Shown: piece by piece, positions 42,354 through 54,544 of the stretch
Position numbering within the stretch: position 1 is the first letter of the stretch
Layout of the letters: each line of letters begins with the position of its first letter
Source: Steroidobacteraceae bacterium
GTDB taxonomy: Bacteria; Pseudomonadota; Gammaproteobacteria; Steroidobacterales; Steroidobacteraceae
Length of the DNA: 64,000 bases
Assembly (NCBI GenBank): GCA_035487155.1
Contig: DATHMK010000015.1
Coordinates: 67,840 to 131,839 of the forward strand
Direction of reading: 5' to 3'
Notes under the pieces: model-generated
What the model saw: the letters and a program-made list of their open reading frames with translations, nothing else
Told to the model about the DNA's origin: nothing
Database searches by the model: none
Program-made: the position numbers and the translations under genes

Positions 42354-43775
42354 ATGTTGTCGGTTCTGGTTAGTCATTCTTACTTTCTGCGGTTCGACCC
42401 CAAGCAATTCCAGCGCGCCAAGCCTTACCCTCCGCTTGCCACGCTTCAGGTCGCGGGGATGCTGCGGCGCCATGGCCACCAGGTGGCGCTGTTCGACGCC
42501 ATGCTGGCGGATGGCCTGGAGGACTACTTCCGCTGCCTTCGGGAGCACTCCCCCCAGCTGCTGATCATCTACGAGGACAATTTCAATTTCCTGAGCAAGA
42601 TGTGCCTGGGCGCCATGCGGCGCGCCGCCTGCGACATGATCCGCGCCGCGCGGGAGCGTGGCGCCCGCATCATCGTGGCCGGCTCCGACGCCAGCGACGC
42701 GCCGGATCCCTATCTCGGCGCCGGTGCGGATGCGGTGCTCGCAGGCGAGGGACTGGAGGCGCTGCGACAGCTGGTGCAGCGTCTGGATGCCGACCCGACG
42801 CTGGATCGTGAGCGCCTGGTGTCCGGTATTCCCGGTATCGCCGGGGGCGGCAGCATCAAGGCAAAAGCACAGCCCGTCGCGCGGCGTATGGATAGCAGTC
42901 AGACGGAACGGCCGGCCTGGGATCTCATCGACATCGAAAGCTACCGGCGCACCTGGCAGGCGGCGCATGGCTACTTCAGCATGAACATGGCCTCTTCGCG
43001 GGGCTGTTCGTTCCGTTGCGCCTGGTGCGCGAAACCGATCTGGGGCAATCGCTATCTGCAGCGAGAACCCGGCGCGGTCGCCGAGGAGCTGCTGCATCTG
43101 AAGCGCCACTTTGCACCCGATCACATCTGGTTTGCCGATGACATATTCGGCTTCCGCGCGGACTGGGTGCAGGCCTTCGCCCGGGCGGCCCGGGCCGGCG
43201 GTGGCGCCGTGCCTTTCACCATCCAGACGCGCGCGGACCTGATCACTCCGGCCATGGCAGCCGCATTGAGCGAGGCGGGCTGCCAGGAGGCGTGGCTCGG
43301 CGCCGAGAGCGGCAGTCAGCGGGTCCTGGATGCCATGAACAAGGGCGTGCAGGTCGCCGAGATCCATACCGCGCGGGCGCGCCTCAAGGCCGCCGGGATC
43401 CGCGTGGGCTTTTTCATCCAGCTCGGGTACCTCGGCGAGCAGCTCGAGGACATTCTGGCGACCCGCGAACTGATCGACACCGCCTGTCCGGACGACATCG
43501 GCATCAGCGTCTCCTATCCATTACCCGGCACCGTCTTCTACGAGCAGGTCAAGGCGCAGCTGGGAGCCAAGACTCATTGGCAGGACAGCAATGATCTGGC
43601 GATGATGTTTCAGGGGACCTACGGTTCGGAGTTCTATCGGGCCGTGCGCGACCTGCTGCACGAACAGGTAAAGCTGCAATCCAACCTCGGAGTTGCCGAG
43701 GCTGAGCCCGCCCGCCAGCAGCTGCGCCGCTCCTGGCAGCGCCTGGTCGCGCGGGAGGGCGAGTGCCGCACCTAG
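42354..43775 (+). CDS. Cobalamin-binding-domain (class B) radical SAM enzyme, copy 1
   Basis: N-terminal Rossmann-like B12-type region (PPLATLQVAGMLRRHGHQVALFDA...IIVAGSDAS), cluster motif SRGCSFRCAWC, and WLGAESGSQRVLDAM. Confidence 0.88.
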   Translation: MLSVLVSHSYFLRFDPKQFQRAKPYPPLATLQVAGMLRRHGHQVALFDAMLADGLEDYFRCLREHSPQLLIIYEDNFNFLSKMCLGAMRRAACDMIRAARERGARIIVAGSDASDAPDPYLGAGADAVLAGEGLEALRQLVQRLDADPTLDRERLVSGIPGIAGGGSIKAKAQPVARRMDSSQTERPAWDLIDIESYRRTWQAAHGYFSMNMASSRGCSFRCAWCAKPIWGNRYLQREPGAVAEELLHLKRHFAPDHIWFADDIFGFRADWVQAFARAARAGGGAVPFTIQTRADLITPAMAAALSEAGCQEAWLGAESGSQRVLDAMNKGVQVAEIHTARARLKAAGIRVGFFIQLGYLGEQLEDILATRELIDTACPDDIGISVSYPLPGTVFYEQVKAQLGAKTHWQDSNDLAMMFQGTYGSEFYRAVRDLLHEQVKLQSNLGVAEAEPARQQLRRSWQRLVAREGECRT

Positions 43776-45277
43776 CGCACATATTGCTCGTCAACCCGAC
43801 GATCACCTCCCGCCGCAGCGCGCGTTTTCCGCTGGCCGCGCTCAACCTGTCGGCCGCGCTCGACGGCCGCTACGCCTCGAGCATTCTGGATGGCAACGTG
43901 GACCGCGATTTCGTGTCCACCGCGCTGAGCCGGATCGAATCCGGTGGCGTCGATGCCGTTGGCGTGAGCGTCATGGGCGGTCCGCAGCTGCGCACCGCCA
44001 TCGCCCTATCGCAGGCGGTGCGCGCGCGCTTTCCGCAGATCCCCATCATCTGGGGGGGGCACTTCCCCACCATCTGCGCCGCGGCCTGCCTGGCCGAAGC
44101 CTTCGTCGACTATGCCATCCGCGGCCAGGGTGAGCAGACCTTCATCGAGCTGCTGGACGCATTGTTCGGACACCGCCTGGATTGCCTGCCGGACATTTCC
44201 GGGCTGTCCTGGCGCGCCGGTAACCGGGTCATCCACAACCGCAATCGCCCGTTCTCGACCGCGGGACTGGCGCGTGAACTGCCCTTTGAACGGCTGGGGA
44301 ATCCGCGCCGCTACCTGGGCAGGACCTATCTGGGGCAGCGTACAACGGGCTACCAGGCCGCACTGGGCTGCCGTTTCCGCTGCACCTTCTGTGGCGTGGC
44401 CGCGATGTTCCGCGGTCGTACGGCGCTGCCGCCGGCGCAGCGCCTGCACCAGGATCTGCGCTACCTGCGCGATGAGTTCGGGGCCGATTCGATCCAGTTC
44501 TACGATCACAATTTCTTTGATCGCGAAGAGGACACCTTACCGCTGCTTGAGGTACTGGCTGACATTCAACTGCCCTGGTGGTGCTTCGCGCGCTCGGATG
44601 CCCTGCTGAATCTGTCGGCGCAGGGCTGGGCGCAGGTGCGCAGAAGCCGCCTGAGCATGGCCTACATCGGCGCCGAGTCGCCCAGCGACTGGCTGCTGCA
44701 CGATATCCGCAAGGGCACCAAGACCGATCAAACCCTGGAGGTCGTGGAGAAGTGCCGCAGCAACGGCGTCATCCCCGAACTGTCCTTCATGCTCGCGCCG
44801 CCGCAGGATCCGGAGGGCGAGACCGAACGGACCTTTGAATTCATCCGCCGCATCAAGCGCGTGCATCCACGCACGGAAATCATGCTGTACATCTATGCGC
44901 CGCTGCCGCCGGCACCGGGCAGCAGCAATCCGCACGTGGAGCGCTCGGTCGCCAATCTTCGCGGCGCGGATGGGCAGCCACTGCAGTTTCCGACCACCGC
45001 GCAGCAATGGGCCGAGCAGGCCTGGGTGCAGTACTGGTGCCACACCAACACCCCGTGGATCTCCCCGCAACTGCGCCAGCGCATCAACGATTTCACCACG
45101 GTGCTCGGGTGTCGCTTCCCCACCATCACCGATGTGCGCTCCCCGCCTTGGGGCAAGTCCGCGCTGCGCGCCCTGGCTTCCTGGCGCTATCGCTTTCGAC
45201 GCTACGGGCGGCCCTGGGAGCTGGATGCGTCGCAACGTTTCATAAAACTTTGGGACCCGCGGGTCTCAGGTTTGTAG
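43763..45277 (+). CDS. Cobalamin-binding-domain (class B) radical SAM enzyme, copy 2 (divergent)
   Basis: GTG start overlaps the copy 1 stop by 13 nt. ILLVNPT...FPLAALNLSAAL...IIWGGHFPT B12-type region, cluster motif LGCRFRCTFC, and YIGAESPS. Confidence 0.88.
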   Translation: MPHLAHILLVNPTITSRRSARFPLAALNLSAALDGRYASSILDGNVDRDFVSTALSRIESGGVDAVGVSVMGGPQLRTAIALSQAVRARFPQIPIIWGGHFPTICAAACLAEAFVDYAIRGQGEQTFIELLDALFGHRLDCLPDISGLSWRAGNRVIHNRNRPFSTAGLARELPFERLGNPRRYLGRTYLGQRTTGYQAALGCRFRCTFCGVAAMFRGRTALPPAQRLHQDLRYLRDEFGADSIQFYDHNFFDREEDTLPLLEVLADIQLPWWCFARSDALLNLSAQGWAQVRRSRLSMAYIGAESPSDWLLHDIRKGTKTDQTLEVVEKCRSNGVIPELSFMLAPPQDPEGETERTFEFIRRIKRVHPRTEIMLYIYAPLPPAPGSSNPHVERSVANLRGADGQPLQFPTTAQQWAEQAWVQYWCHTNTPWISPQLRQRINDFTTVLGCRFPTITDVRSPPWGKSALRALASWRYRFRRYGRPWELDASQRFIKLWDPRVSGL

Positions 45278-46299
45278 TGACGCCGCGCCGCCATCACGAC
45301 AGCTCCGATCCGCATCCTGATCCGTTCGCCGAACGCACGCGGATGCGGGCGGCGGTGTCGCGACCACTGCTGGGCGGCCGGTTTCGTTTCGAGAGCAGCA
45401 GCGCCGAGCTCTTAGGCCTGGTGCAGTGGGCCTACGGCGGTCTCCCCGAGCACATCTTCAAGGCGCCCGCCCCGCGCTTCACCGTGCGCCTGGTTCTGAA
45501 TGGCAACGATCCGCCCCGCTCGCGCAGCGGGCCCTCGGCGTTGAGGCTCATGGGGGGCGGGGGAGTTCTCGGCGGCGTGACCGGCTGCGCGAGCTTCGTG
45601 GCACTGGCCCCTGAGGCGGCCGGCGCGCTGGTGGCCGTATCGGGCGCAATGCTCAAGTATCCCTACCATGCGCGTTACGAGCTGCTTGAATTCGCGGTGT
45701 TCACCCTGGCAACCCGCGCGCAGCAGCTCACGCCATTGCATGCCGCGTGTGTGAGCCTGCATGACCGTGGCGCGCTGCTGATGGGCGCGAGCGGCGCCGG
45801 AAAATCCACCCTGGCGCTGCACTGTGCGCTGCGCCAGCTGGACTTCGTGGCCGAGGACGCTGTGTTCGTGACGGCCAAGGAACTGCTCGCTACAGGCATC
45901 GCCAATTTCCTGCATGTGCGCCCCGACAGCCTGCGCTGGCTGTCGCAGCAGCAGGCGCTCACGATCCGCAGCGCACCGACCATCAAGCGCCGCAGCGGCG
46001 TGCGCAAGTTCGAAGTCGACCTGCGTCGCGACCCGTATCGCCTGGCCGCGCGCCCGCCGCAGCTGCGCGCGGTCGTGTTCCTCTCGCCCCGGGCGGGCGG
46101 CCGGGACCTTCTTCGGCCGCTGTCCGCCGCTGACACACGCGCGAGGCTGTCGGCTGCTCAACCGTATGCCGCGGGCCAGTCCAGCTGGAAGCCGTTTGCA
46201 TCCAGCGTGCGAGCGCTTCGTGGCTACGAACTGCGCCGTGGCCGGCACCCCCAGGAGGGTGCCGAAGTCCTGCACGAACTGCTGGCGGGCGAGCGATGA
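45277..46299 (+). CDS. Stand-alone HprK C-terminal-domain-like P-loop protein (putative kinase)
   Basis: LHAACVSLHDRGALLMGASGAGKSTLALHCALRQLDFVAEDAVFV resembles the HPr kinase catalytic core. Candidate starts are a GTG at 45277, sharing its first base with the last base of the upstream stop codon, or an ATG at 45343. Confidence 0.68.
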   Translation: MTPRRHHDSSDPHPDPFAERTRMRAAVSRPLLGGRFRFESSSAELLGLVQWAYGGLPEHIFKAPAPRFTVRLVLNGNDPPRSRSGPSALRLMGGGGVLGGVTGCASFVALAPEAAGALVAVSGAMLKYPYHARYELLEFAVFTLATRAQQLTPLHAACVSLHDRGALLMGASGAGKSTLALHCALRQLDFVAEDAVFVTAKELLATGIANFLHVRPDSLRWLSQQQALTIRSAPTIKRRSGVRKFEVDLRRDPYRLAARPPQLRAVVFLSPRAGGRDLLRPLSAADTRARLSAAQPYAAGQSSWKPFASSVRALRGYELRRGRHPQEGAEVLHELLAGER

Positions 46300-46301
46300 G
46301 C

Positions 46302-47018
46302 TCAGAGTTTCTGGAAGGCCACGGCCCGGTAGCGCTCGCGCTCGCCGCTCATCAGCTGGTTGTTTCGATCGAAGAGCACATCCGGCGCGAGGTGCTTCGG
46401 ATCCGCTTCGCAGACGACATTGAAGTGCGCCGCCACGGCGGTATCGCAAAAGCGGAAGTTGGTCGTGTGCAATACCAGCAGCCCTCCGGGCTTCAGGCAG
46501 CGGGCAAAATCGCCAATCAACCGATCGAAGGTCTCGAACCGCAGCAACGGATCGCTGCGCTGTGCCTTCGAGGTGGTCAGATCGCCATTCAACAGCACCG
46601 CGAGGCAGAAGATCGCATCGTAGGATCCGCTGGCCTCGCCAGCGGTCGTCGCCGCCAGCTCGAATGTGCCATTGGCAAATCCTATGGCGCGTGCGCGCGC
46701 CTGGCAGCGGGCGATGTTGCGCGCATTGATGTCGATGCCCTTGATGTTGGCAGCAGGAAAATAGCGCCGCAGGCTGAACACCTCCTCGCCGCGCGAACAG
46801 CCAAACGACAGAATGCGCAGGTTCTCGCGCGGCCCGATGTGCTCGGCCGCAAACCCGAACAGCCACGGATAGCGATCCGTCCGCGTGTAGGTGTAAGGCT
46901 GGAATTCACCCGGCGCCGGGCGGCGCACCAGGCGCGTCAGCGACAGGCCAACATCCCAGACCGCATGGCGTCCCCAGCGGGCTGCGCCCTTGAACGAAAC
47001 GAGATTTGGAATTTTCAT
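46302..47018 (-). CDS. Class I SAM-dependent methyltransferase
   Basis: Starts at the internal ATG (MKIPNLVSFKG...). Motif I ILSFGCSRGEE, post-I IKGIDIN, and later KPGGLLVL. The longer track ORF upstream is Arg/Ala/Pro-rich and implausible. Confidence 0.72.
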   Translation of the reverse strand: MKIPNLVSFKGAARWGRHAVWDVGLSLTRLVRRPAPGEFQPYTYTRTDRYPWLFGFAAEHIGPRENLRILSFGCSRGEEVFSLRRYFPAANIKGIDINARNIARCQARARAIGFANGTFELAATTAGEASGSYDAIFCLAVLLNGDLTTSKAQRSDPLLRFETFDRLIGDFARCLKPGGLLVLHTTNFRFCDTAVAAHFNVVCEADPKHLAPDVLFDRNNQLMSGERERYRAVAFQKL

Positions 47019-47083: not shown

Positions 47084-49189
47084 ATGGCCATAGCAACATC
47101 TTCCCCGCCGCCCCTGCGCCTGCTGGTGATTGGCGCCGGACCGGCACCCGATGCGCTGCACCTGCCGCTGCTTTCGCGGCTGCGCGACCGCGGCCAGGTC
47201 GAGCTGTCGGTGGTGTGCGATATCCGGCGCGAACGCGCGGCGGGCGCCCGTAAGAAATTCGGCTTTCAGCAGGACAGCGGCGAGGCGGTGGCGGCGCTGG
47301 AGCGTCCCGATATAGATGCCGTATACATTTTCGGCAGCGCTCAGCTGCACTATGAATATGGAAAGCTGGCGCTGCGCAATGACAAGCACCTGTTCGTCGA
47401 GAAGCCCGTCGCACCCAGCTTTGCGCAGGCGCGCGAGCTGGCGGATCTTGCCGGCCAGCGTGGCCTGATTGCCGCCGCCGGTCTTAATCGGCGGTTCCTG
47501 AAATCCTTCGCCGCGGTTCGTGCCCGCGCCGGGCAAGCCGGCTGGAGATTTGCCGAAGCCGTGTTCCACAAGAGCGAGTTCGCCAATCCAGCCTCATTCG
47601 GGGCCCTAACCTGGCTGGGCGCCAACGGCATCCATGCTCTGGATGCACTGGTGTTCATGATGGGTGGTCTGCCCGAGCAGCTCACGGCGCTGGCTGGCGA
47701 GAGTGCCGCGGCGCAGCCGGGCGCCTTTTCGGCCCTGATGCGCTGGCGCGACGGCGCCCAGGGCGTATTTCTCTGCAACAACAACGCTGGCTCGCGGCGC
47801 GAGGAGTACGTCTTCCACGCGCCTGATGAGACCTGCACGGTCGCCGCGGCGGGACTCACGATTGAACACAAAGGACAGGCTGCCAGCTTCATACCGCTGC
47901 CCATGCAGGGTGACGGCTTTGCGCTGGAGCACGAGGCCTTCGTGGAGGCGATTCGCAGCGGCAGCGCGCCGCCGCACAGCATCGCCGCGGTCGCCCCCTC
48001 GATGTTTCTTGCCGAACTGATTGAAAGCGGCTTCAGCGGGCGCGTCGAGCTGCCCAAGACCGAGCCTCGCGCGCTCCCGCGCTGGCCGAGCGCCGAGCGC
48101 TCGATACTGGTCGTGCAGCCGGCCGAACTGCAGGCGGCGCTCTCGGATCTGCTCCCGCAATACCGCTTTGTGTCACTGGATGACATAGGCGCATCCGCCG
48201 CTGCACGTCCGGATGTGGTGGCGGCCATATTGGGCCGCGGCTCGGCCGCGCTATCCGCGCAAATCCTGGACAAGCTGCCACAGCTTGCGGTGGTCGGAAT
48301 CTCAGGTCAGTCGGTGGCGCGTCATGAACCCGAGGCGCTGCTGGCGCGCAACATCACCCTCATCAACGCCAGCGATGCCTACGCAGACAGTGTCGCGGAA
48401 TTCGCGCTCGGGCTGGCCATCCTCGGCCGCCGCCGTGCCTTTGTCTCGCACGATGTCATGCGTGCCGGTGGGTGGGGAATCACCCCGCGCATACCCGGGT
48501 TCAAGTGCCTGTTGAACCGCAGCGCCCGCAGTGTGTATCCCATCGTCAGGGCAATCGGTCTTCATACGGTGCTTCTCAAGCTGTGGCGTGCCGCATCGCC
48601 ATGGGTGGGTGCCCCGCAGTGGGGCGCGGGGCGGGCGCGCGATCTGCAGGGGGCGATGGTGGGGCTCATCGGCTGGGGCCCCAATGCGCGCGCCTTTGCC
48701 GAGCGTCTGGTTGGCTGCAAGGCGCAGGTACTGGTGTATTCAGAACATGCCCACCCGCAGGACATTCGCGGCAGCGGTGCGCAGCCCGCCTCCCTTGGCG
48801 AAGTGCTGGCGGCCGATATCGTGTCCTTGCATCGCGGACTCACGGCGAGCACGCGGCATCGTCTGGGCGCCGCCGAACTTGCCAGGCTGCGTCCCGGTGC
48901 GGTGCTCATCAATGTCGCGCGCGGCGCGCTGCTCGAACCCGAAGCGCTCCTGGCCAGATTGCAGCGCGGTGACATCTACGCCTGCCTGGACACCCTCGAA
49001 GGGGAGCCCCCAAGCCCTGCACACCCGTTGAGACGTCTGCCGAATGTATTTCTCACCTCGCACATCGCGGGCGGTTCGCCCGACAACTATGCGGCGGCGA
49101 ACCTGGAGGTGGTGCGCAAAGTCGCGGCTCACCTGGCCGGCAATGGCAGCCAGGCCATTTCCGCGGAACGTCTACGCACCATGTCCTGA
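47084..49189 (+). CDS. Fusion protein: N-terminal Gfo/Idh/MocA oxidoreductase plus C-terminal D-isomer-specific 2-hydroxyacid dehydrogenase
   Basis: N-terminal half: LRLLVIGAGP...VYIFGSAQLHYEYGKLALRNDKHLFVEKPVA (EKP motif). C-terminal half: VGLIGWGPNARAFAERL, INVARGALL and FLTSHIAGGS (Arg/Glu/His triad positions). Confidence 0.78.
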   Translation: MAIATSSPPPLRLLVIGAGPAPDALHLPLLSRLRDRGQVELSVVCDIRRERAAGARKKFGFQQDSGEAVAALERPDIDAVYIFGSAQLHYEYGKLALRNDKHLFVEKPVAPSFAQARELADLAGQRGLIAAAGLNRRFLKSFAAVRARAGQAGWRFAEAVFHKSEFANPASFGALTWLGANGIHALDALVFMMGGLPEQLTALAGESAAAQPGAFSALMRWRDGAQGVFLCNNNAGSRREEYVFHAPDETCTVAAAGLTIEHKGQAASFIPLPMQGDGFALEHEAFVEAIRSGSAPPHSIAAVAPSMFLAELIESGFSGRVELPKTEPRALPRWPSAERSILVVQPAELQAALSDLLPQYRFVSLDDIGASAAARPDVVAAILGRGSAALSAQILDKLPQLAVVGISGQSVARHEPEALLARNITLINASDAYADSVAEFALGLAILGRRRAFVSHDVMRAGGWGITPRIPGFKCLLNRSARSVYPIVRAIGLHTVLLKLWRAASPWVGAPQWGAGRARDLQGAMVGLIGWGPNARAFAERLVGCKAQVLVYSEHAHPQDIRGSGAQPASLGEVLAADIVSLHRGLTASTRHRLGAAELARLRPGAVLINVARGALLEPEALLARLQRGDIYACLDTLEGEPPSPAHPLRRLPNVFLTSHIAGGSPDNYAAANLEVVRKVAAHLAGNGSQAISAERLRTMS

Positions 49190-50659
49190 GGGCACCAGCG
49201 CCAGCAGTTCCTGTACCGCTTCGGGCCTGAGCGGCGCGACATGGCGTTCGCACAGCTCAGCCGCGCGAGTGCCGGCGGCGCAATCCTGATGTGCGTCGGC
49301 ATAGTCGATCCGGTCAATGAACTCCTCGGGGGCAGTTACGCATTCGCGCCAGTCATGCAGCGCATGCAGGCAGTCGAACGGCAGCTCGCCGGTGCGCGCA
49401 AGGTAGTAGGGGCGTATGCCCGCGCGCACCGCATGCAATGCCGCCGAGGAACCACGGTAGAGACAGTAGCGCGCCTGCGCCAGATCCTGCTCCAGCGGCC
49501 TGTCTGCCGACAGCACGACATTGCCCGGCAAGCTTGCCAATGCCGGCAGACGCCGGCGCAGCGATCCGGTATCGACCATGGGATGCGGGCGCAGGATGAA
49601 GCCCAAGTCCGGGCACCTGCGCGCACAGCGCAAGGCGAAGTCAAACAGTGTCACGCATTCAGGATGGCTAGCATCCGGCAGTACCAGGCAGCTGCGCGGG
49701 CGGCCGTGCGGCGCCGGCAGCGCGGGCAGCGTTGCGCGCCGGTGTGACCCATACTGAATGAACCGCACTGCGCGAAGTTCAGGACTGCTGGCGAGCATCG
49801 CCTGCGGGATTGGCCCCAGCGTCAGAATGACATCCGGATCGCAATCGAGGCCGGGGGCCGCAACCGGCCGCCGGATCGCATGAGCGCGCCTTAGGATCAT
49901 GGCATGCTGATATCCCACGCACAGCGGCCGTCGTCCCGAGTCGCGCGCGGCGTGCCAGATCAACCTTTCGGCGACCGTGCCTTCGTAGGTGGTGATGACC
50001 ATCTTTGGGGCAACCGCCCGGCAAAGGTCGGCAAGAGCGGCATGCATCCGCAGATTGGCCGCCGCCGCGGATGACACGGCCTGCCGGCCTGCGAGCCTGG
50101 CAACTGCAGTGTCGAGGGCGCTGCCCGCAGCGGCGGCCTCCCGGCTCAGGGCCCGCCAGGCGCGCGCGCCTTCGCGCCAGATACGAGCCTCCGTCGCCAG
50201 CGCTACCGTGCCCGGCAACACCACGCGTGCATTGGCGCCGCGCCGCTCCTGGAGTTGCGGTGTGTCCGGCAGATGGCTGATCAGAACCAGCAGTGATGTC
50301 GCCCCCTGATCCTGCAACCGGTCCTGCAGAGCGCCGAAATAGAAATCCTGGTCCTGTTGGAGCTGCTCAGGCCTTAGCAGGTGGGAGACGATCACGACAT
50401 CCGCCGGCGCCGCCCTCAGGGGCGGGCGCCCCGCCGCCGCGCGCGCCAGTGCGCGTGCGGCGCGAACCAGGGTCCCTGGAGCCTCGGCAAGACCCCCGAG
50501 GGGACGTCCCGACAGCACGCACCGGTACTGAGCCAGGGAACTGGGATGTTCGTTCAGGAAATGCAGCGCCGGGATCGCCAGTCGCGCAAGGCTGGTATCC
50601 GCAGCGCGCAACCGCCGGTCGCAGGCCGCGGCGATGCTGGCATATTCCTCCTCGGTCAT
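49172..50659 (-). CDS. Hypothetical 495-aa protein; possibly a two-Rossmann (GT-B-like) fold, unverified
   Basis: Starts at the internal ATG (MTEEEYASIAAACDRR...). No motif I can name. Alternating beta-alpha-like segments (VVIVSHL..., KMVITTYEG..., CLVLPDASH..., CLYRGSSAALHAV). The 3' end overlaps the convergent fusion gene by 18 nt. Confidence 0.5.
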   Translation of the reverse strand: MTEEEYASIAAACDRRLRAADTSLARLAIPALHFLNEHPSSLAQYRCVLSGRPLGGLAEAPGTLVRAARALARAAAGRPPLRAAPADVVIVSHLLRPEQLQQDQDFYFGALQDRLQDQGATSLLVLISHLPDTPQLQERRGANARVVLPGTVALATEARIWREGARAWRALSREAAAAGSALDTAVARLAGRQAVSSAAAANLRMHAALADLCRAVAPKMVITTYEGTVAERLIWHAARDSGRRPLCVGYQHAMILRRAHAIRRPVAAPGLDCDPDVILTLGPIPQAMLASSPELRAVRFIQYGSHRRATLPALPAPHGRPRSCLVLPDASHPECVTLFDFALRCARRCPDLGFILRPHPMVDTGSLRRRLPALASLPGNVVLSADRPLEQDLAQARYCLYRGSSAALHAVRAGIRPYYLARTGELPFDCLHALHDWRECVTAPEEFIDRIDYADAHQDCAAGTRAAELCERHVAPLRPEAVQELLALVPSGHGA

Positions 50660-50669
50660 CCGCGGCGCC

Positions 50670-51626
50670 TCATGAGGCTGACGGAAAGGGCCGGCCGTGG
50701 CGGGTTCTGAAGTGCTGATAGATTCCGCTGGTGTGAAAGAACTGCGCCGCATCGGCAAACGACTGGTCCGAGGCGATTGCGGTGACGAAGAAGGTGTGCG
50801 AGCCGATGGTTTCAAAGTCCAGAATCGAGCACTCGCGCACCCGCAGTGCACTGGCGGGATAGGGCAGCGAAAACCGGGTCGATCGCACCGTCTCGAAGGG
50901 CAGCTGGTCCCAGGCGACCATCGCATTCTTATGATGAACACCAAGCTTGTAGGCCAGCGCATAGTCGCGGGCCGGGACGTCCGACAAAGTCACCCGGCGG
51001 GCGCTCTTCATCGTGGCTATCGACGGACTGGTACTGCGCAGCGCCAGTGTAAAACGGTCGGCGGTCACCGGGCCTATCAGATCCATCGGGAAAATATTGC
51101 TGTGCGCGCCATCTTCCACGGACACCAGCACCACCGGGCGCGGGCAGATGTAGAAGATCATTTGCTGCTGCACGGCTTCCGGAGGCATGAAGAAATTATT
51201 CGGATCAGTATTACGGCGCATCCTGCGGTTCTGCAACCAACGGTTCCAGGGCCGGTAGGGCCAGCCCAGGCAGCGCTGAGTACCGCTTCGAACTTCGAAC
51301 AAACCGATGGCCGCCCCTGATGTGTGCCAGGTCCTGAGGTGGCGCAACTGCAGCAGCCCCACGGTGCGGCGGGATTCCTGATCCACGAATTGCAGCTCCG
51401 GTGGGCCGCCCTCAGCGACCGCGGCGATGCGCTGCGAGTCAAGGCCCACGGCCAGCGTCAGTGGTCGCAACGCGGCCACGACCGCAGCACCGGTTACATC
51501 GAAGTCAGCGCTGCCCGTCATCAGGCGGACCTGCACGGCATCCTGGGGCTGACGCAGCGCGACCGGCGGCCATTGCGGCAAGGGCCGCAGCCACTGCTTC
51601 AATACCTTTGGTACCCGTCGCGCCAT
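50670..51626 (-). CDS. Flavin-reductase-like (FMN-binding split-barrel) domain protein with N-terminal extension
   Basis: C-terminal ~190 aa carry CPRPVVLVSVEDGAHSNIFPMDL...IGSHTFFVTAIA, resembling the flavin reductase domain. The N-terminal ~120 aa are unassigned. Confidence 0.55.
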   Translation of the reverse strand: MARRVPKVLKQWLRPLPQWPPVALRQPQDAVQVRLMTGSADFDVTGAAVVAALRPLTLAVGLDSQRIAAVAEGGPPELQFVDQESRRTVGLLQLRHLRTWHTSGAAIGLFEVRSGTQRCLGWPYRPWNRWLQNRRMRRNTDPNNFFMPPEAVQQQMIFYICPRPVVLVSVEDGAHSNIFPMDLIGPVTADRFTLALRSTSPSIATMKSARRVTLSDVPARDYALAYKLGVHHKNAMVAWDQLPFETVRSTRFSLPYPASALRVRECSILDFETIGSHTFFVTAIASDQSFADAAQFFHTSGIYQHFRTRHGRPFPSAS

Positions 51627-51628
51627 GA

Positions 51629-52363
51629 TCAGCGTGTCTTTTCAAAGACCAGAAACAGGTAGCGGGATCTGGCCGCGTGCAGCCAGGAAAATCGACCGTC
51701 ACGGCGTGGATCGATGCCGAGCATGCTCTGCAGCCGGAAATGCGCTGCGCTGGCCGCGCGGAAGTGACGCAGCAGACGCCGGTAGTGTGGCGCCTGGGGT
51801 CCGGGCATGAACAGCTGTCCATCGCGCCACAGACGCGGTGCCTCACGCCACCACCAGCGGTGGCGCATTTCGCCGAGGAACAGTGGATTGAGCACGCTGG
51901 CCAGGACCCTGCCCTGGGGGAGGGTCAGCGCCTGGAATTTCGCAAACAGCTCGGGCAGATCATCGATGAGGTTGAGCGGCGCGAAATTCGATATCACCAG
52001 CTCGCATCCGCGCTCGTTGTCCTTGGCTTCAAGAAAATCCCGATAGGCTCTGCCATCAAGGGTGATGCGACCTGTGCCCATGAGGTCGCGGCAATGCTCG
52101 GCGAAGAAATCCCGCATTCTCGGATCCACTTCGTAGGCATCGACCGTGAAGCCGCGCTCGGCGAAAAACCGCGCATCGATGCCGGGGCCCGCACCGAAGT
52201 CGAACAGCCTGGCGCCCGGCGCGACCATGCGCAGCACCAGGTCCCGAAAGGCCGCGCGTGTGCGGCGGTCGGCGCATTGGGCGTTGATCTGACGGACATA
52301 CTCCGCGCCCGCCGGCGTGTGCTGAACATAGCGCAGGTCGGAATCATCGCGCGCGGCGCTCAT
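51629..52363 (-). CDS. Class I SAM-dependent methyltransferase
   Basis: Motif I RLFDFGAGPGIDARFFAERG, and acidic post-I residue in VDAYEVDPRM. Confidence 0.78.
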   Translation of the reverse strand: MSAARDDSDLRYVQHTPAGAEYVRQINAQCADRRTRAAFRDLVLRMVAPGARLFDFGAGPGIDARFFAERGFTVDAYEVDPRMRDFFAEHCRDLMGTGRITLDGRAYRDFLEAKDNERGCELVISNFAPLNLIDDLPELFAKFQALTLPQGRVLASVLNPLFLGEMRHRWWWREAPRLWRDGQLFMPGPQAPHYRRLLRHFRAASAAHFRLQSMLGIDPRRDGRFSWLHAARSRYLFLVFEKTR

Positions 52364-53121
52364 CAGACCCGCTCCAGTTCCAGAAGATAATGATCCGCCA
52401 ACCGCGGCAGCGGCCAGCGTGTCTCGAAGCGACGTTCAATTCGCTCCAGGGTGTCGAGCAGGCGCGGATACCGGCGCAGAGTGCCTTCCGTGTAGGGCGG
52501 GGGCAGCAGCGCTCCGATGGCAGAGACGCGCAGTGGCCGGAAGCCGGGCGCAAAGGCTGCCGTGGCTGCGCCAATGGATGGATAGCGGATCGTGACCCCG
52601 GCCCATTCGCGGCTGCGATGCAAACGGCGAAACGCCGCTGCGGGACGGCCGCGCGCCAGGAACCACAGCCACTCCCACGGTACGTGCGGTCCCATGATGC
52701 ACAGAATCGCCGTGGCACCGGGCCTGAGGCGCCCGGCCAGGGCGCAAGCCGCGCCCTTCAGGTCGGACACGCAATTCAGACCCCCGAAATTCGAGAGCAT
52801 GCCATCGAAGGGTCCGGCATCAAGGCCGCCGAGCTCTTCCCAGGCCAGCCTCCGGAACTGCACGGCAGCCCTCTGCGGCTGCGCATCGAGCTTGCGGTGC
52901 GCGACCTCAATCATGCGCGCGGATATGTCAGTTGCCAGAACCTGCATTCCCTGATTCGCCAGCCAGCCGGCGTCCTCCCCGGTGCCGCAGTTCATCTCCA
53001 GGATCCTGAAGCCGGGCCGGAAGCGCGCCGCGCAGCGCGCCCAAACGGCCGCGCGCATGGCTGCGCCGATGCGGGTGTGCGTGAACTGGCCGTCGTACGC
53101 TTCCGCGACAGAGTCGAACAC
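52363..53121 (-). CDS. Class I SAM-dependent methyltransferase
   Basis: Motif I ILEMNCGTGEDAGWLANQG, post-I VLATDIS. Proposed GTG start (VFDSVAEAYDGQF...) lies 20 nt after the upstream radical SAM stop. The track start at 53274 lies inside that gene. Confidence 0.72.
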   Translation of the reverse strand: MFDSVAEAYDGQFTHTRIGAAMRAAVWARCAARFRPGFRILEMNCGTGEDAGWLANQGMQVLATDISARMIEVAHRKLDAQPQRAAVQFRRLAWEELGGLDAGPFDGMLSNFGGLNCVSDLKGAACALAGRLRPGATAILCIMGPHVPWEWLWFLARGRPAAAFRRLHRSREWAGVTIRYPSIGAATAAFAPGFRPLRVSAIGALLPPPYTEGTLRRYPRLLDTLERIERRFETRWPLPRLADHYLLELERV

Positions 53122-53140
53122 GTACTCTCGCGCGGCCAGA

Positions 53141-54544
53141 TCAGGCCTCCGTTTCGGCGGCGAGCCCCAGCATCGACTCGCGCGCGTCGCGGGCCGCGGC
53201 GCGCTTCCGGGCGGCGGCCAACGGGTCCTGGGTGGCGATGCGCGTGGCTTCCACCTCGTTGCGCAGCCAGGCATCGGCCTGCTTGTAGTAGCCGCGCGAA
53301 TGCCGGCCCCGGATGCGAAAGTCGCGGTCCGTGGCCGCGGCCCAGTCCTTCTCCAGCACCACGGACTGCGCGGTCTTTTGAAAGTAGGCGGTGTTCTTGA
53401 TCGGATAGGCCACCGTCGTCAGGTAAATGTCCGGCTGGCATTCCTTCACCAGCTCGACGGTGGCCGCGATGTCCTCGATCTGCTCACCGCTGTAGCCCCA
53501 CATCAGGAACATGCCGACCTGGATGCCATAGCGCTTGGCCGCCTTCGCCGCCCAGGTCACCTCCTCGATGGTGACCCCGCGTTCCATGGCATCCAGAATC
53601 CGCTGGCTGCCGCTCTCCGAGCCAATCCAGATGCGATAGCAGCCCATCTGCGCGAGCGTCTCCAGAACCTCGTCCTTGAGCATCCGGTCGGCACGCGAAA
53701 TGGTCTCGAAGGGCACGCGCAGATTGCGGCGCTTCAGTTCCTTGGCATAGCCGTACAACCAGGGATGGCTGATGGTGAAGACATCATCCGCATACCAAAC
53801 CTGGTCAGGCCGCCAGGTCTGCATGATGTGCTCGAGTTCTGCCGCGCAGTCCATGAAACTGCGTCGCCGGTGGGTATAGCCATACACGGCGTGGGAACAC
53901 CAGTTGCAGCGATAGGGACAGCCGCGCGCGGTGATCATGTTGACACTGCCCATGCCGTGCTTCTCGCGCCAGACATCGACATAGCGCGCCTGGTCGATGC
54001 GGCCGCGATCCGGCCATGGCAGGGAGTCCAGGTCCGCGATCTTGACCCGCTCGGGGTTCGTGAGCACCACTCCCTGTTCGTCGCGGAAGGTGCAGCCCGC
54101 GACCCCATGCAGGCGATGGGGTCCGCGTGCAGCCAGTGCCGGCAACAGTTCCTCCAGGGTGGTTTCCCCTTCCCCCGTCACGATGACATCCGCGCCATGC
54201 GCCAGGTATTCGCCCGGATAGTTGGCGCACTCCGGCCCACCCAGCACCACCGTCCAGCCATGCCGCTTGGCGACGGCGATGATGTCCAGGACCGGGCGGC
54301 GGGTCATGAGATTGGTGTAGATGCCCAGCACCCCCCGGGTGTTTGCCAGCCGTTCGAAGAGCTGGCCGCGCTCGGCGAAGGTGGAATCGAAAATATCGAC
54401 CGCAAAGCCCGCCCGGCGCAGGTAGGCTGAGAGATACAAGAGACCCAGGGTGGGGTAGGGACGCATGATCTGCAGTTCCTTTTCGTCTTCGAAAAGGAAA
54501 TAGCCATGGGTCAGCAGCAGCTCGCACATCCCCGTAGGTGCCAC
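53141..54544 (-). CDS. Cobalamin-binding-domain (class B) radical SAM enzyme, copy 3 (paralogue of copy 1)
   Basis: PYPTLGLLYLSAYLRRAGFAVDIFDS...VVLGGPE B12-type region, cluster motif ARGCPYRCNWC, WIGSESGSQRILDAM and YPIKNTAYF. Confidence 0.88.
   Translation of the reverse strand: MAPTGMCELLLTHGYFLFEDEKELQIMRPYPTLGLLYLSAYLRRAGFAVDIFDSTFAERGQLFERLANTRGVLGIYTNLMTRRPVLDIIAVAKRHGWTVVLGGPECANYPGEYLAHGADVIVTGEGETTLEELLPALAARGPHRLHGVAGCTFRDEQGVVLTNPERVKIADLDSLPWPDRGRIDQARYVDVWREKHGMGSVNMITARGCPYRCNWCSHAVYGYTHRRRSFMDCAAELEHIMQTWRPDQVWYADDVFTISHPWLYGYAKELKRRNLRVPFETISRADRMLKDEVLETLAQMGCYRIWIGSESGSQRILDAMERGVTIEEVTWAAKAAKRYGIQVGMFLMWGYSGEQIEDIAATVELVKECQPDIYLTTVAYPIKNTAYFQKTAQSVVLEKDWAAATDRDFRIRGRHSRGYYKQADAWLRNEVEATRIATQDPLAAARKRAAARDARESMLGLAAETEA

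What the first reader, a model, noticed from the sequence alone, without database searches (positions are those of the whole stretch)
42354..54544. Orphan ~12-kb cluster: three class-B radical SAM enzymes, three methyltransferases, HprK-like protein, fused dehydrogenase, flavin-reductase-like protein and a 495-aa unknown
Ten contiguous genes form three tightly packed units.
- Plus strand: rSAM-1, rSAM-2 and an HprK-like protein, with overlapping or abutting start and stop codons.
- A divergent pair: a methyltransferase (minus strand) and a Gfo/Idh/MocA plus 2-hydroxyacid-dehydrogenase fusion (plus strand), separated by only 65 nt.
- Minus strand: rSAM-3, two methyltransferases, a flavin-reductase-like protein and a 495-aa unknown, with gaps of 0-20 nt.

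Each radical SAM protein shows a CxxxCxxC motif (CSFRCAWC, CRFRCTFC, CPYRCNWC) after an N-terminal Rossmann-like region of the cobalamin-binding type. Established knowledge: class-B radical SAM enzymes methylate unactivated carbon or phosphorus centres, or catalyse ring contractions and rearrangements, in antibiotic, lipid (hopanoid, tetraether) and cofactor pathways.

I could not find any of the following in or next to the cluster:
- A scaffold-forming enzyme (no PKS, NRPS, terpene cyclase, clear glycosyltransferase or ATP-grasp).
- A PqqD-like RiPP recognition element or a convincing precursor peptide.
- A transporter or a regulator.

I therefore cannot match this gene combination to any pathway I know. 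It has the same high-GC composition as the surrounding core genes. It is flanked by trxC (a possible reductant supplier; speculation) and, at about 54.55 kb, by the start of the more AT-rich region.

Working hypotheses (inference only):
- Multi-step C-methylation or rearrangement plus O/N-methylation and redox tailoring of a lipid or a cyclitol/sugar-like metabolite.
- Modification of a peptide or protein encoded elsewhere.
Basis: partly seen in the sequence, partly recalled or inferred. Interest (0 to 1): 0.86.

Follow-up and report, generated by a model that had tools for sequence, protein, structure and literature searches.

The report
Orphan radical-SAM sugar-tailoring gene cluster
A real gene cluster, conserved in uncultured soil Steroidobacteraceae, combines three B12-type radical SAM enzymes with sugar-type dehydrogenases, methyltransferases, a kinase and a previously unrecognised glycosyltransferase-fold protein; it most likely builds an unknown, heavily modified cell-envelope sugar, and no characterised pathway matches it.

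Summary
The ten genes are present as described, with the stated motifs and spacing. All domain calls hold. No protein reaches any curated NCBIfam family cutoff.

The window comes from a Steroidobacteraceae MAG. The gene set recurs, in shuffled order and in different genomic contexts, in at least nine independent loci, so it is a functional unit.

New findings:
- **The 495-aa "unknown".** It has a GT-B glycosyltransferase fold. Its wider family has no Pfam, NCBIfam or PDB sequence match and carries invariant YEG, RxHP and YRG(SS) motifs. Distant members sit in polysaccharide loci next to CMP-sugar synthetases, aldolases or NeuB, and separate Gfo/Idh/MocA and 2-hydroxyacid dehydrogenase genes.
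- **Extra genes in relatives.** These include a PF14907 nucleotidyltransferase, GT2, GT87, a polysaccharide deacetylase, a sulfotransferase and a PglK/MsbA-like ABC exporter.
- **Likely wider boundary.** An amidohydrolase plus methyltransferase pair (34.3-36.2 kb) and an esterase/TPR gene (38.3-39.7 kb) probably belong to the cluster.
- **The "HprK-like" protein.** Its full-length fold resembles ATP-dependent PEP carboxykinase.
- **No peptide signature.** No precursor peptide or PqqD-like element appears in eight loci.

Best reading (confidence about 0.45): cytoplasmic tailoring and transfer of an acidic or ulosonic-type sugar for an envelope glycoconjugate. The main rival is modification of a peptide or protein encoded elsewhere. 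The product is unknown.

The parts
42354..43775 (+). rSAM-1. It has a B12-binding-domain plus radical SAM architecture and the motif CSFRCAWC.
   Evidence: - Pfam Radical_SAM 59.6 bits and B12-binding 34.2 bits, both above cutoff.
- The best NCBIfam hit is 98 bits against a cutoff of 360, so it is not a member of any curated family.
- Orthologues at 61-80% identity occur in L004, L012, L014 and L019.
43763..45277 (+). rSAM-2. It has a B12-binding-domain plus radical SAM architecture and the motif CRFRCTFC. It is the most conserved gene of the system.
   Evidence: - Pfam domains are found.
- Identity to rSAM-1 and rSAM-3 is only 22-23%.
- Orthologues at 62-81% identity occur in L004, L005, L014, L019 and L022.
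- More than 120 protein clusters at 74% identity or higher exist in metagenomes.
45277..46299 (+). P-loop kinase of the PEPCK/HprK fold (340 aa), with Walker A motif GASGAGKST.
   Evidence: - Hpr_kinase_C scores 30.8 bits, below the 33.3 cutoff.
- Homologues carry PF27840 ScmC in precomputed annotation.
- The AF2 model has pLDDT 85.6.
- Foldseek's best hits are full-length ATP-dependent PEPCK (E 6e-9, TM 0.52). HprK/P matches only the C-terminal domain.
- It is conserved in every rSAM-type locus except L022.
46302..47018 (-). Class-I SAM methyltransferase MT_a (238 aa).
   Evidence: - Pfam Methyltransf_31/25/11/12/23.
- Orthologues at 67-78% identity occur in L002, L005, L011, L012 and L022.
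47084..49189 (+). Fused Gfo/Idh/MocA oxidoreductase plus D-2-hydroxyacid dehydrogenase (701 aa).
   Evidence: - Pfam GFO_IDH_MocA 68 bits and 2-Hacid_dh_C 126 bits.
- The best PDB relatives of the C-terminal half are phosphoglycerate, glycerate or glyoxylate dehydrogenases.
- Orthologues at 61-73% identity occur in seven loci.
- The two halves are separate genes flanking the GT-B gene in polysaccharide loci L017 and L020.
49172..50659 (-). The 495-aa "unknown": a GT-B-fold glycosyltransferase-like protein from an unannotated family. The family has invariant YEG, RxHP and YRG(SS) motifs.
   Evidence: - No Pfam or NCBIfam hit.
- The AF2 model has pLDDT 81 and pTM 0.84.
- Foldseek finds 269 PDB hits at E<=1e-3, and the top 50 listed are nearly all GT-B glycosyltransferases, led by a natural-product glycosyltransferase at E 4e-9.
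- The family has 1345 representatives at 50% clustering.
- The motifs are invariant across 40 diverse members.
- A profile search against PDB sequences finds nothing.
50670..51626 (-). Protein of 318 aa with a C-terminal flavin-reductase-like (split-barrel) domain.
   Evidence: - Pfam Flavin_Reduct scores 30.5 bits against a cutoff of 27, over residues 161-284.
- A PDB FMN-binding protein (PH0856) matches at E 0.004.
- Orthologues at 75-77% identity are always next to MT_b and, except in L012, next to rSAM-3.
51629..52363 (-). Class-I SAM methyltransferase MT_b (244 aa).
   Evidence: - Pfam Methyltransf_23 46.6 bits.
- Orthologues at 66-73% identity.
52363..53121 (-). Class-I SAM methyltransferase MT_c (252 aa, GTG start).
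   Evidence: - Pfam Methyltransf_25/11/12 and TPMT.
- The best NCBIfam hit is the corrinoid-protein-associated methyltransferase CpaM, 53 bits against a cutoff of 180.
- An orthologue at 80% identity occurs in L012. Relatives at 33-47% identity occur in L014 and L019.
53141..54544 (-). rSAM-3. It has a B12-binding-domain plus radical SAM architecture and the motif CPYRCNWC.
   Evidence: - Pfam Radical_SAM 67 bits and B12-binding 48 bits.
- Identity to rSAM-1 is 31.5%.
- The nearest solved structure is MgmA (9ccb), E 1.4e-16.
- Orthologues at 58-63% identity occur in the other cluster types, and at 80-87% in L012.
34304..35482 (+). Amidohydrolase-superfamily protein (392 aa). It is a probable outlying member of the system.
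   Evidence: - Weak hits to the TRZ/ATZ, 8-oxoguanine, guanine and 5'-deoxyadenosine deaminase group.
- Orthologues lie inside the cluster in L012 (71% identity), L014 (48%) and L019 (41%).
- In L022 it is fused to the methyltransferase.
35479..36156 (+). Class-I methyltransferase MT225. It is a probable outlying member and is always paired with the amidohydrolase.
   Evidence: - The best NCBIfam hit is the DVU_1556-family methyltransferase, 79 bits against a cutoff of 155.
- It is adjacent to the amidohydrolase in L012, L014 and L019 and fused to it in L022.
38284..39732 (-). Secreted esterase (PF00756) plus TPR protein. It is a possible accessory gene.
   Evidence: -
- It has an N-terminal hydrophobic segment.
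- A 71%-identical homologue directly flanks the kinase gene in L014.
- It is not seen in the other loci.

Best explanation
The cluster is a chromosomal, vertically maintained cassette of soluble cytoplasmic enzymes. It most likely tailors, activates and transfers an unusual acidic (ulosonic-acid-like) or otherwise highly modified sugar destined for a cell-envelope glycoconjugate.

Proposed steps. All are inferred from family membership and gene context; none is shown experimentally.
1. **Redox tailoring.** The Gfo/Idh/MocA half of the fused dehydrogenase oxidises a sugar hydroxyl. The D-2-hydroxyacid-dehydrogenase half interconverts a 2-keto and 2-hydroxy acid function.
2. **Radical chemistry.** The three B12-domain radical SAM enzymes act at unactivated carbons. 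C-methylation is most likely. AprD4-like dehydration or a skeletal rearrangement is not excluded.
3. **Methylation.** Three to five class-I methyltransferases add O- or N-methyl groups.
4. **Activation.** The PEPCK/HprK-fold P-loop kinase phosphorylates the intermediate. In most relatives a PF14907 nucleotidyltransferase acts next.
5. **Transfer.** The 495-aa GT-B protein, from a sialyltransferase-like family, transfers the product to its acceptor.
6. **Cofactor support.** The flavin-reductase-like protein supplies electrons to the Fe-S or cobalamin cofactors. The amidohydrolase (a deaminase-type family) either removes 5'-deoxyadenosine or SAH by-products or deacylates the substrate.
7. **Export (relatives only).** In related genomes GT2, a polysaccharide deacetylase, a PglK/MsbA-like ABC exporter and a GT-C (GT87) enzyme would carry the unit across the inner membrane onto the final acceptor.
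For: - **Conserved unit.** The gene set is conserved but reshuffled, and sits in different genomic contexts, in L002, L004, L005, L011, L012, L014, L019 and L022.
- **GT-B fold.** The 495-aa protein has this fold.
- **Polysaccharide context of its family.** Members at 33-41% identity are embedded in polysaccharide loci:
  - They lie directly beside CTP_transf_3 CMP-sugar synthetases, HpcH aldolase or NeuB, SIS isomerase, HAD phosphatase, Wzx, GT2 and GT4.
  - In L017 and L020 there are also separate Gfo/Idh/MocA and 2-Hacid_dh genes. These are the same two domains that are fused in the window.
- **Motifs.** Invariant YEG, RxHP and YRG(SS) motifs parallel the D/E-D/E-G, HP and SS donor-binding motifs of bacterial sialyltransferases (PMC2996176).
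- **Glycan genes in orthologous clusters.**
  - GT87, a sulfotransferase and a MsbA/HepA/PglK-like ABC exporter.
  - A TuaG-like GT2.
  - Two GT2 genes plus Polysacc_deac_1.
- **Sugar-type dehydrogenase.** The N-terminal half of the fusion best matches sugar or inositol dehydrogenases (IolG, levoglucosan and UDP-GlcNAc 3-dehydrogenases).
- **Kinase fold.** The full-length kinase model matches the small-molecule kinase PEPCK better than HprK/P.
- **Localisation.** All ten proteins lack transmembrane segments.
- **No peptide signature.** No conserved small ORF and no PqqD/RRE domain is found in eight loci. Intergenic space is almost nil (Pfam lists).
Against: - The window has no sugar-forming enzyme (aldolase or NeuB), no CMP-sugar synthetase, no priming transferase and no exporter. 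It also lacks the PF14907 gene found in five of its six closest relative loci.
- All experimentally characterised HprK homologues phosphorylate proteins or peptides. The kinase + PF14907 nucleotidyltransferase + sulfotransferase trio is otherwise known from lasso-peptide clusters (PMC8498205).
- The nearest solved relative of rSAM-1 and rSAM-3 is MgmA, a protein-glutamine C-methylase.
- The sialyltransferase-motif resemblance is motif-level only. The Foldseek top 50 hits are generic GT-B enzymes, not sialyl- or Kdo-transferases.
- No substrate or product is known for any homologue.
Confidence: 0.45

Rival explanations
1. The cluster modifies a peptide or protein encoded elsewhere. The HprK-like kinase phosphorylates a Ser. 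In relatives, the PF14907 nucleotidyltransferase decorates the phosphate, as in the lasso peptide pseudomycoidin. The B12 radical SAM enzymes C-methylate side chains, as in MgmA, Mmp10, PoyC and ApyD. The methyltransferases and the GT-B enzyme add further groups, and the ABC exporter secretes the product.
For: - The HprK-homologue kinase, nucleotidyltransferase and sulfotransferase are documented lasso-peptide tailoring genes (PMC8498205). All three occur in L011.
- Homologues of the kinase hit PF27840 ScmC. From memory, this is the SynChlorMet radical-SAM/SPASM cassette.
- L019 also has a weak ScmF-like radical SAM protein.
- MgmA is the nearest solved structure to rSAM-1 and rSAM-3.
- rSAM-2's best NCBIfam hit is the RiPP enzyme ApyD, 77 bits against a cutoff of 750.
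- An M32 carboxypeptidase and an HExxH protein lie nearby in the window.
Against: - Eight loci have no conserved small ORF. L019 has no intergenic segment of 60 nt or more in 21.5 kb.
- No locus has a PqqD/RRE domain, lasso B or C enzyme, leader peptidase or SPASM maturase at significant score.
- The M32 and HExxH genes are not conserved with the cluster.
- The GT-B, fused dehydrogenase, GT2, GT87 and CE4 content points to carbohydrate chemistry.
Confidence: 0.25
2. The cluster tailors a membrane lipid or glycolipid. The radical SAM enzymes methylate or cross-link acyl or isoprenoid chains. The GT-B enzyme and the kinase build a glycosyl or phospho head group.
For: - rSAM-1's best NCBIfam hit is the "lipid biosynthesis B12-binding/radical SAM protein" (ladderane-type), at 98 bits. 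HpnJ and HpnR hits are also present.
- The exporter resembles MsbA.
- The cluster is a conserved chromosomal trait of one bacterial family.
Against: - Scores are three- to six-fold or more below every lipid-family cutoff.
- No locus has an acyltransferase, prenyltransferase, squalene/hopene or fatty-acid gene.
- All ten proteins are soluble.
Confidence: 0.12
3. The cluster makes a diffusible small molecule of the nucleoside, cyclitol or aminoglycoside type, or a cofactor. The deaminase-type amidohydrolase, kinase, nucleotidyltransferase, inositol-dehydrogenase-like domain and B12 radical SAM enzymes act as in gentamicin, oxetanocin or apramycin-type pathways.
For: - There are weak IolG-like and AprD4-like similarities.
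- The amidohydrolase belongs to the purine or pterin deaminase group.
- A TonB-dependent receptor (PqqU-like, 648 bits against a cutoff of 1200) is in operon position with the amidohydrolase in the window.
- The esterase is Fes-like.
Against: - No scaffold-forming enzyme is present.
- The TonB-dependent receptor is not conserved with the cluster in other loci.
- The cluster is a stable chromosomal feature of a whole family rather than a patchy secondary-metabolite island.
Confidence: 0.1

Closest known systems
Bacterial ulosonic/nonulosonic-acid glycan loci (CMP-sugar synthetase plus sialyl/Kdo-type GT-B transferase)
   Same: - The 495-aa protein has a GT-B fold.
- Its relatives sit immediately beside CTP_transf_3, NeuB or HpcH aldolase, SIS and HAD genes, together with Gfo/Idh/MocA and 2-Hacid_dh genes.
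- It carries HP- and SS-like motifs.
   Different: - The window cluster has no sugar synthase or CMP-synthetase.
- It adds three B12-domain radical SAM enzymes, a PEPCK/HprK-fold kinase and a flavin-reductase-like protein.
- The GT family has no detectable sequence similarity to any solved or curated glycosyltransferase.
B12-dependent radical SAM sugar C-methylases of natural-product pathways (GenK, GenD1, Fms7, MoeK5), listed in PMC12931638
   Same: The same B12-binding plus radical SAM architecture acts beside glycosyltransferases and dehydrogenases on carbohydrate substrates.
   Different: - There is no aminoglycoside or moenomycin scaffold gene.
- The cluster is a conserved chromosomal trait of Steroidobacteraceae.
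- Orthology could not be tested, because no reference sequences or models were available here.
Lasso-peptide tailoring set: HPr-kinase homologue + nucleotidyltransferase + sulfotransferase (paeninodin, pseudomycoidin)
   Same: The same three enzyme types co-occur, with an ABC exporter, in L011 (PMC8498205).
   Different: - There is no precursor, no B1/B2/C enzymes and no PqqD domain.
- The window lacks the nucleotidyltransferase and the sulfotransferase.
- The kinase's full-length fold resembles PEPCK.
Arn-type undecaprenyl-phosphate sugar modification pathway (dehydrogenase, GT2, CE4 deacylase, flippase, GT-C)
   Same: Relatives combine a dehydrogenase, GT2, Polysacc_deac_1, an ABC exporter and a GT-C (GT87) enzyme.
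   Different: - This is a resemblance of logic only.
- No ArnA/B/C/T orthology was shown.
- None of these accessory genes is in the window.
MgmA (PDB 9ccb), the B12 radical SAM glutamine C-methyltransferase of methyl-coenzyme M reductase
   Same: It is the closest solved sequence to rSAM-1 and rSAM-3 (E 5e-14 and 1e-16), with the same two-domain architecture.
   Different: - The NCBIfam MgmA model scores 88-100 bits against a cutoff of 360.
- The host is an aerobic proteobacterium without MCR.

Membership tests
Class-B (B12-binding domain) radical SAM enzymes | CxxxCxxC cluster motif within a Radical_SAM (PF04055) domain | tested here: met
   CSFRCAWC, CRFRCTFC and CPYRCNWC are present. PF04055 scores 59.6, 44.4 and 67.1 bits against a cutoff of 29.5.
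Class-B (B12-binding domain) radical SAM enzymes | N-terminal Rossmann-like B12-binding domain (PF02310) | tested here: met
   Scores are 34.2, 57.2 and 48.2 bits against a cutoff of 32.1.
Class-B (B12-binding domain) radical SAM enzymes | Actual cobalamin binding and methyl-transfer chemistry | not testable with these tools
   AprD4 and ArsL share the architecture without binding cobalamin, and sequence cannot separate methylases from other chemistries (PMC12931638). AprD4 is among the closest solved relatives of rSAM-1 and rSAM-2.
Characterised B12 radical SAM families (BchE, HpnJ, HpnR, PhpK, MgmA, BzaD, ApyD, ladderane-type, AprD4, KedN5, TsrM-type) | Score at or above the curated NCBIfam equivalog cutoff | tested here: not met
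   The best score for any of the three proteins is 124 bits (PhpK, cutoff 600). BchE scores 66-114 bits against 481. HpnJ scores 60-109 bits against 578. MgmA scores 47-100 bits against 360.
HPr kinase/phosphorylase (HprK/P) | Hpr_kinase_C domain at gathering score, or the TIGR00679 equivalog | tested here: not met
   PF07475 scores 30.8 bits against 33.3, covering only 50 residues around the P-loop. TIGR00679 scores 28 bits against 240. HprK_rel_A and HprK_rel_B score 36 and 38 bits against 200.
HPr kinase/phosphorylase (HprK/P) | P-loop (Walker A) of the PEPCK/HprK kinase fold | tested here: met
   GxSGxGKST is invariant in 25 homologues. Foldseek matches PEPCK (E 6e-9) and HprK/P C-terminal domains (E 6e-6).
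RiPP (lasso-type or other) biosynthetic cluster | Precursor peptide gene in or next to the cluster | tested here: not met
   No conserved intergenic ORF of 20-120 aa is found across the window and seven related loci.
RiPP (lasso-type or other) biosynthetic cluster | PqqD-like recognition element, leader peptidase or cyclase | tested here: not met
   No PF05402, transglutaminase-like or Asn_synthase hit appears in the Pfam lists of L008-L012, L014, L019 or L022.
GT-B glycosyltransferases | Two Rossmann-like domains of the GT-B fold | tested here: met
   The AF2 model has pLDDT 81 and pTM 0.84. Foldseek finds 269 PDB hits at E<=1e-3, and the top 50 listed are nearly all GT-B enzymes, all with probability 1.00.
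Sialyl/Kdo-type (CMP-sugar-dependent) GT-B transferases | D/E-D/E-G, HP and SS donor-binding motifs | tested here: inconclusive
   YEG(225-227), R357-x-H359-P360 and Y401-R402-G403-S-S are invariant or nearly so in 40 diverse members. The equivalence to the published motifs (PMC2996176) rests on motif order only. No structural or sequence alignment to a sialyltransferase was obtained.
Sialyl/Kdo-type (CMP-sugar-dependent) GT-B transferases | Genomic association with a CMP-sugar synthetase | tested here: inconclusive
   This is met for distant members (L007, L013, L017, L018, L020). It is not met in the window or in any radical-SAM-type locus.
Gfo/Idh/MocA and D-2-hydroxyacid dehydrogenase families | Pfam domains above the gathering score | tested here: met
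   PF01408 scores 68.1 bits against 24. PF02826 scores 126.4 bits against 25.1. PF00389 scores 30 bits against 24.6. No NCBIfam equivalog is reached.
Flavin reductase-like (PF01613) | Domain at the gathering score | tested here: met
   It scores 30.5 bits against 27, over the C-terminal 125 residues only. Flavin binding was not testable.

The most novel reading that the evidence does not exclude
The system makes a new kind of branched or C-methylated higher-carbon acidic sugar for the envelope of soil Gammaproteobacteria. B12 radical SAM enzymes would remodel the carbon skeleton. A PEPCK/HprK-fold kinase plus a PF14907 nucleotidyltransferase would replace the usual CMP-sugar synthetase as the activation route. 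A previously unrecognised sialyltransferase-like GT-B family would install the sugar. This would also be the first non-peptide substrate for the HprK-related kinase / PF14907 pair.
Probability: 0.2. Interest if true: 0.8.

Novelty: new variant of a known kind. Interest (0 to 1): 0.6.

Why it matters
- **Three orphan families get a testable context.** These are a GT-B family with about 1,300 representative sequences and no annotation, the HprK-related/ScmC kinases, and the PF14907 nucleotidyltransferases.
- **A possible new role for B12 radical SAM enzymes.** If the glycan reading is right, it would place multiple B12-type radical SAM enzymes in primary cell-envelope glycan biosynthesis of Gram-negative bacteria. 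So far such enzymes are known mainly from antibiotics, RiPPs, pigments, hopanoids and cofactors.
- **Ecological reach.** The cluster is abundant in soil metagenomes. rSAM-2 alone has more than 120 protein clusters at 74% identity or higher, and 2567 of the 8000 scored candidates reach E<=1e-3. The product may therefore be a widespread surface trait of uncultured Steroidobacteraceae.
- **A systematic misannotation.** Source annotations in JGI/IMG records, and one NCBI MAG record, call rSAM-2 orthologues "BchE" or "YgiQ".

Tried and rejected
**Dead ends**
- The metagenome-contig scan seeded with the kinase alignment failed.
- Literature searches for "ScmC" and for cobalamin radical SAM plus nonulosonic acid found nothing relevant. 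PF14907 appears only as an uncharacterised neighbour in a phosphonate survey.
- A profile of the GT-B family against all PDB sequences gave no true hit.
- hhalign of that profile against the 476-aa unknown of L022 was not significant.
- Rfam found no cobalamin riboswitch or any other RNA family, and ARAGORN found no tRNA.
- PDB sequence searches with the 391-aa unknown (U392) and the PF14907 protein found nothing.

**Rejected readings**
- *Hopanoid, BchE or PhpK identity.* Scores are far below cutoff.
- *Mobile island.* The window's flanks are core genes: uvrD, cox, bioB/F, recG, spoT and gmk. GC content is native.
- *RiPP with a cis-encoded precursor.* No conserved small ORF was found.
- *trxC as a dedicated partner.* It is not conserved next to the cluster in the loci other than those that duplicate the window.
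- *Arsenic or selenium chemistry.* This was suggested by weak ArsL, CUAEP-tail and DVU_1556 methyltransferase hits. No Cys-rich C-terminal tails are present and scores are sub-threshold.

Full report
**1. Observation**

- The plus-strand unit is rSAM-1, rSAM-2 and the kinase, with overlaps of 13 nt and 1 nt.
- The divergent pair is MT_a and the fused dehydrogenase, 65 nt apart.
- The minus-strand unit is rSAM-3, MT_c, MT_b, the flavin-reductase-like gene and the 495-aa gene, with gaps of 0-19 nt.

Pfam confirms the following:
- B12-binding plus Radical_SAM for all three radical SAM proteins;
- class-I methyltransferase domains in three proteins;
- GFO_IDH_MocA plus 2-Hacid_dh in the fusion;
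- Flavin_Reduct, marginally above cutoff;
- Hpr_kinase_C, just below cutoff;
- nothing for the 495-aa protein.

NCBIfam gives many weak hits to characterised B12 radical SAM families. Every one is several-fold below its curated cutoff, so none of the three enzymes belongs to a named family. All ten proteins lack transmembrane segments.

**2. Source and context**

The 495-aa protein is 100% identical to a hypothetical protein of a Steroidobacteraceae MAG. The rest of the window holds core genes: uvrD, the aa3 oxidase operon, bioB/bioF, recG, spoT and gmk. The cluster has the GC content of these genes. It is therefore native chromosome, not an island. No Rfam family (including the cobalamin riboswitch) and no tRNA is present.

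**3. Conservation**

Related loci were fetched from genomes and metagenomes and mapped with tblastn. They show the same genes in several different orders and with different flanks.
- **L012.** It has all ten genes, plus a PF14907 nucleotidyltransferase, and homologues of window genes 34304-35482 (amidohydrolase) and 35479-36156 (methyltransferase) directly attached.
- **L002, L004, L005 and L011 (next to ccm genes in L005 and L011).** The order is NTase, MT_b, FlavRed, rSAM-3, GT-B, kinase, fused dehydrogenase, MT_a. L002 ends about 1.5 kb past MT_a; in the other three there follow a 392-aa unknown, a sulfotransferase in L011, GT87, an ABC exporter and rSAM-2.
- **L014.** The order is MT, amidohydrolase, MT225, GT-B, fused dehydrogenase, rSAM-2, NTase, rSAM-1, kinase, then an esterase/TPR 71% identical to window gene 38284-39732.
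- **L019.** It has four B12 radical SAM genes, the NTase, an FkbM methyltransferase, GT-B, an ABC exporter, the kinase, a TuaG-like GT2 and the amidohydrolase plus MT225 pair. It has no fused dehydrogenase.
- **L022.** It has an MT225-amidohydrolase fusion, rSAM-2, an ABC exporter, two GT2 genes, Polysacc_deac_1, MT_a and the fused dehydrogenase.

The radical SAM orthologues are 58-81% identical across these types. The kinase is 44-52% identical and the GT-B protein 40-67%.

Reshuffling with retention is strong evidence of a functional unit. It also shows that the window copy is a reduced or split version. Its amidohydrolase-MT225 pair lies 6 kb upstream. The NTase, exporter and extra glycosyltransferases are not in the 64 kb.

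**4. The 495-aa protein**

An AlphaFold2 model (pLDDT 81, pTM 0.84) matches GT-B glycosyltransferases almost exclusively. These include natural-product glycosyltransferases, OGT, a methylmannose-polysaccharide mannosyltransferase, trehalose-phosphate and sucrose-phosphate synthases, MurG and BshA.

The family is large, with 1345 representatives at E<=1e-3 in the 50%-clustered library. It is unannotated, and the few members whose source names were checked are all called "hypothetical". A family profile finds nothing among PDB sequences.

Members at 33-41% identity lie in polysaccharide loci:
- **L007.** Upstream are an HpcH aldolase, two SDRs and CTP_transf_3. Downstream are GT2, an epimerase, two GT4 genes and RmlD.
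- **L017 and L020.** Both contain the cassette SDR, SDR, CTP_transf_3, Gfo/Idh/MocA, an unknown gene, HpcH, (HAD), 2-Hacid_dh, GT-B and SIS. L020 also has Wzx and further GT2 and GT4 genes; L017 has a GT2 gene.
- **L018.** It has two NeuB genes plus CTP_transf_3.
- **L013.** A fused 1026-aa member lies next to CTP_transf_3.

Two conclusions follow. The family is tied to CMP-activated ulosonic or nonulosonic-type sugars. The Gfo/Idh/MocA plus 2-hydroxyacid-dehydrogenase partnership pre-dates the fusion seen in the window.

Across 40 diverse members the invariant positions include YEG (225-227), R357-x-H359-P360 and Y401-R402-G403, followed by SS. Their order resembles the D/E-D/E-G, HP and SS donor-binding motifs of bacterial sialyltransferases (PMC2996176). 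I treat this as a lead, not a test.

**5. The kinase**

The Walker A motif GxSGxGKST is invariant. Over its full length, the model (pLDDT 85.6) best matches ATP-dependent PEP carboxykinase (E 6e-9, TM 0.52). HprK/P aligns only with the C-terminal P-loop domain. Homologues carry the precomputed Pfam label PF27840 ScmC.

Known HprK homologues outside HprK/P itself are lasso-peptide Ser kinases. These work with a nucleotidyltransferase that glycosylates the phosphate, and sulfotransferases occur in the same clusters (PMC8498205). That trio is present in L011. This is the main argument for a peptide substrate.

**6. Test of the peptide hypothesis**

I extracted all ORFs of 20-120 aa that do not overlap long coding ORFs, from the window (31-57 kb) and seven related loci. 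None is conserved across loci, apart from ccmH fragments at the ends of two loci. L019 has no intergenic segment of 60 nt or more. No PqqD/RRE domain, lasso B/C enzyme or leader peptidase appears in any Pfam list. A cis-encoded RiPP is therefore unlikely. A substrate encoded in trans cannot be excluded.

**7. Radical SAM enzymes**

The three are old paralogues or independent recruits. rSAM-1 and rSAM-3 share 31.5% identity, and rSAM-2 shares 22-23% with either.

The closest solved sequences are MgmA (9ccb; identified through PMC11796369) and AprD4, then CysS, OxsB, TokK and TsrM. A 2026 review stresses that architecture does not predict chemistry and that AprD4 and ArsL do not bind cobalamin (PMC12931638). 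"C-methylation" is therefore the most probable chemistry but remains unproven.

rSAM-2 orthologues are very abundant and conserved. They are routinely mis-named BchE or YgiQ by automatic annotation.

**8. Interpretation**

- **Carbohydrate pathway (about 0.45).** Supporting evidence:
  - the GT-B fold and its family context;
  - the sugar-type fused dehydrogenase;
  - the GT2, GT87, CE4 and PglK/MsbA-like genes in orthologous clusters;
  - the soluble nature of all ten proteins;
  - the absence of precursor genes.

  On this reading the cluster tailors (by redox, radical C-methylation or rearrangement, and O/N-methylation), activates (kinase, with or without PF14907 NTase) and transfers (GT-B) an acidic or otherwise unusual sugar to an envelope glycoconjugate.
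- **Peptide or protein encoded elsewhere (about 0.25).** This rests on the kinase/NTase/sulfotransferase precedent and the similarity to MgmA.
- **Lipid tailoring (about 0.12) and a diffusible small molecule (about 0.1).** These have little specific support.

**9. Novelty and score**

- Every component belongs to a known superfamily, and radical-SAM-containing orphan clusters are common. This is not categorically new.
- The combination matches no characterised pathway. It contains an unannotated GT-B family. It places the HprK-related kinase and PF14907 pair in an apparently non-RiPP setting. It is also widespread in soil metagenomes.
- I rate it a new variant of a known kind, with interest 0.6.

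Noticed in passing
L007:5897-11467; L017:3763-12215; L020:3262-12090: A conserved cassette recurs in polysaccharide loci of Comamonadaceae, Steroidobacteraceae and unassigned metagenome contigs. Its order is SDR, SDR, CTP_transf_3, Gfo/Idh/MocA, a roughly 335-aa unknown, HpcH aldolase, (HAD), 2-Hacid_dh, GT-B and SIS. It looks like a Kdo-like pathway for an unknown CMP-activated ulosonic acid, and the cassette itself appears uncharacterised.
   Followed up: partly
window 32150-34294 (+): A TonB-dependent receptor resembles the PQQ importer PqqU (648 bits, below the equivalog cutoff of 1200). It ends 10 nt before the amidohydrolase gene that elsewhere belongs to the radical SAM cluster. The receptor itself is not conserved with the cluster.
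   Followed up: partly
window 36153-38264 (-): Three unannotated genes lie between MT225 and the esterase. They encode a secreted Cys-rich 109-aa protein, a membrane-anchored 257-aa protein with an HELLH motif (a possible metalloprotease) and a 263-aa multi-pass membrane protein. None has a Pfam or NCBIfam hit, and none is found in the related loci.
   Followed up: partly
L012:6131-7521 and L012:15381-16607; L022:8537-10004: In some relatives the radical SAM genes are split or truncated. rSAM-3 appears as a 248-aa B12-domain ORF plus a 148-aa fragment. rSAM-2 is shortened to 408 aa. A fourth radical SAM gene is split into 251 aa plus 254 aa. These may be frameshifts, pseudogenes or long-read assembly errors.
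   Followed up: no
L001 (ERZ27253725 k141_28522), corresponding to window about 45480: One public assembly of the same sequence breaks about 200 nt into the kinase gene, just downstream of rSAM-2. Three other assemblies run through this point. This may reflect strain microdiversity at that position.
   Followed up: no
rSAM-2 orthologues (P0406-P0525): Source annotations (JGI/IMG records, and one NCBI MAG record) name these proteins "anaerobic Mg-protoporphyrin IX monomethyl ester cyclase" (BchE) or "YgiQ". The BchE model scores 66 bits against a cutoff of 481, so this is a systematic misannotation.
   Followed up: yes
window 54609-64000: The lower-GC stretch (0.56-0.62) after the cluster holds several genes. 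These are a DUF1579-like protein, PadR, a permease-prefix protein, a 569-aa protein with no Pfam hit (weak CadC/TPR-like similarity), a SnoaL-like protein, a HAD hydrolase and a BlaR1-type M56 peptidase. The same arrangement occurs in three other assemblies of this population.
   Followed up: partly
window 19862-21565 (+) and 23829-25418 (+): A 567-aa ORF with no Pfam or NCBIfam match lies next to the cox operon. An RPE65-type carotenoid oxygenase lies between bioB and a UbiA prenyltransferase.
   Followed up: no
L022:6636-8540: The MT225-type methyltransferase and the amidohydrolase are fused into one 634-aa protein. This is independent evidence that the two act together.
   Followed up: partly
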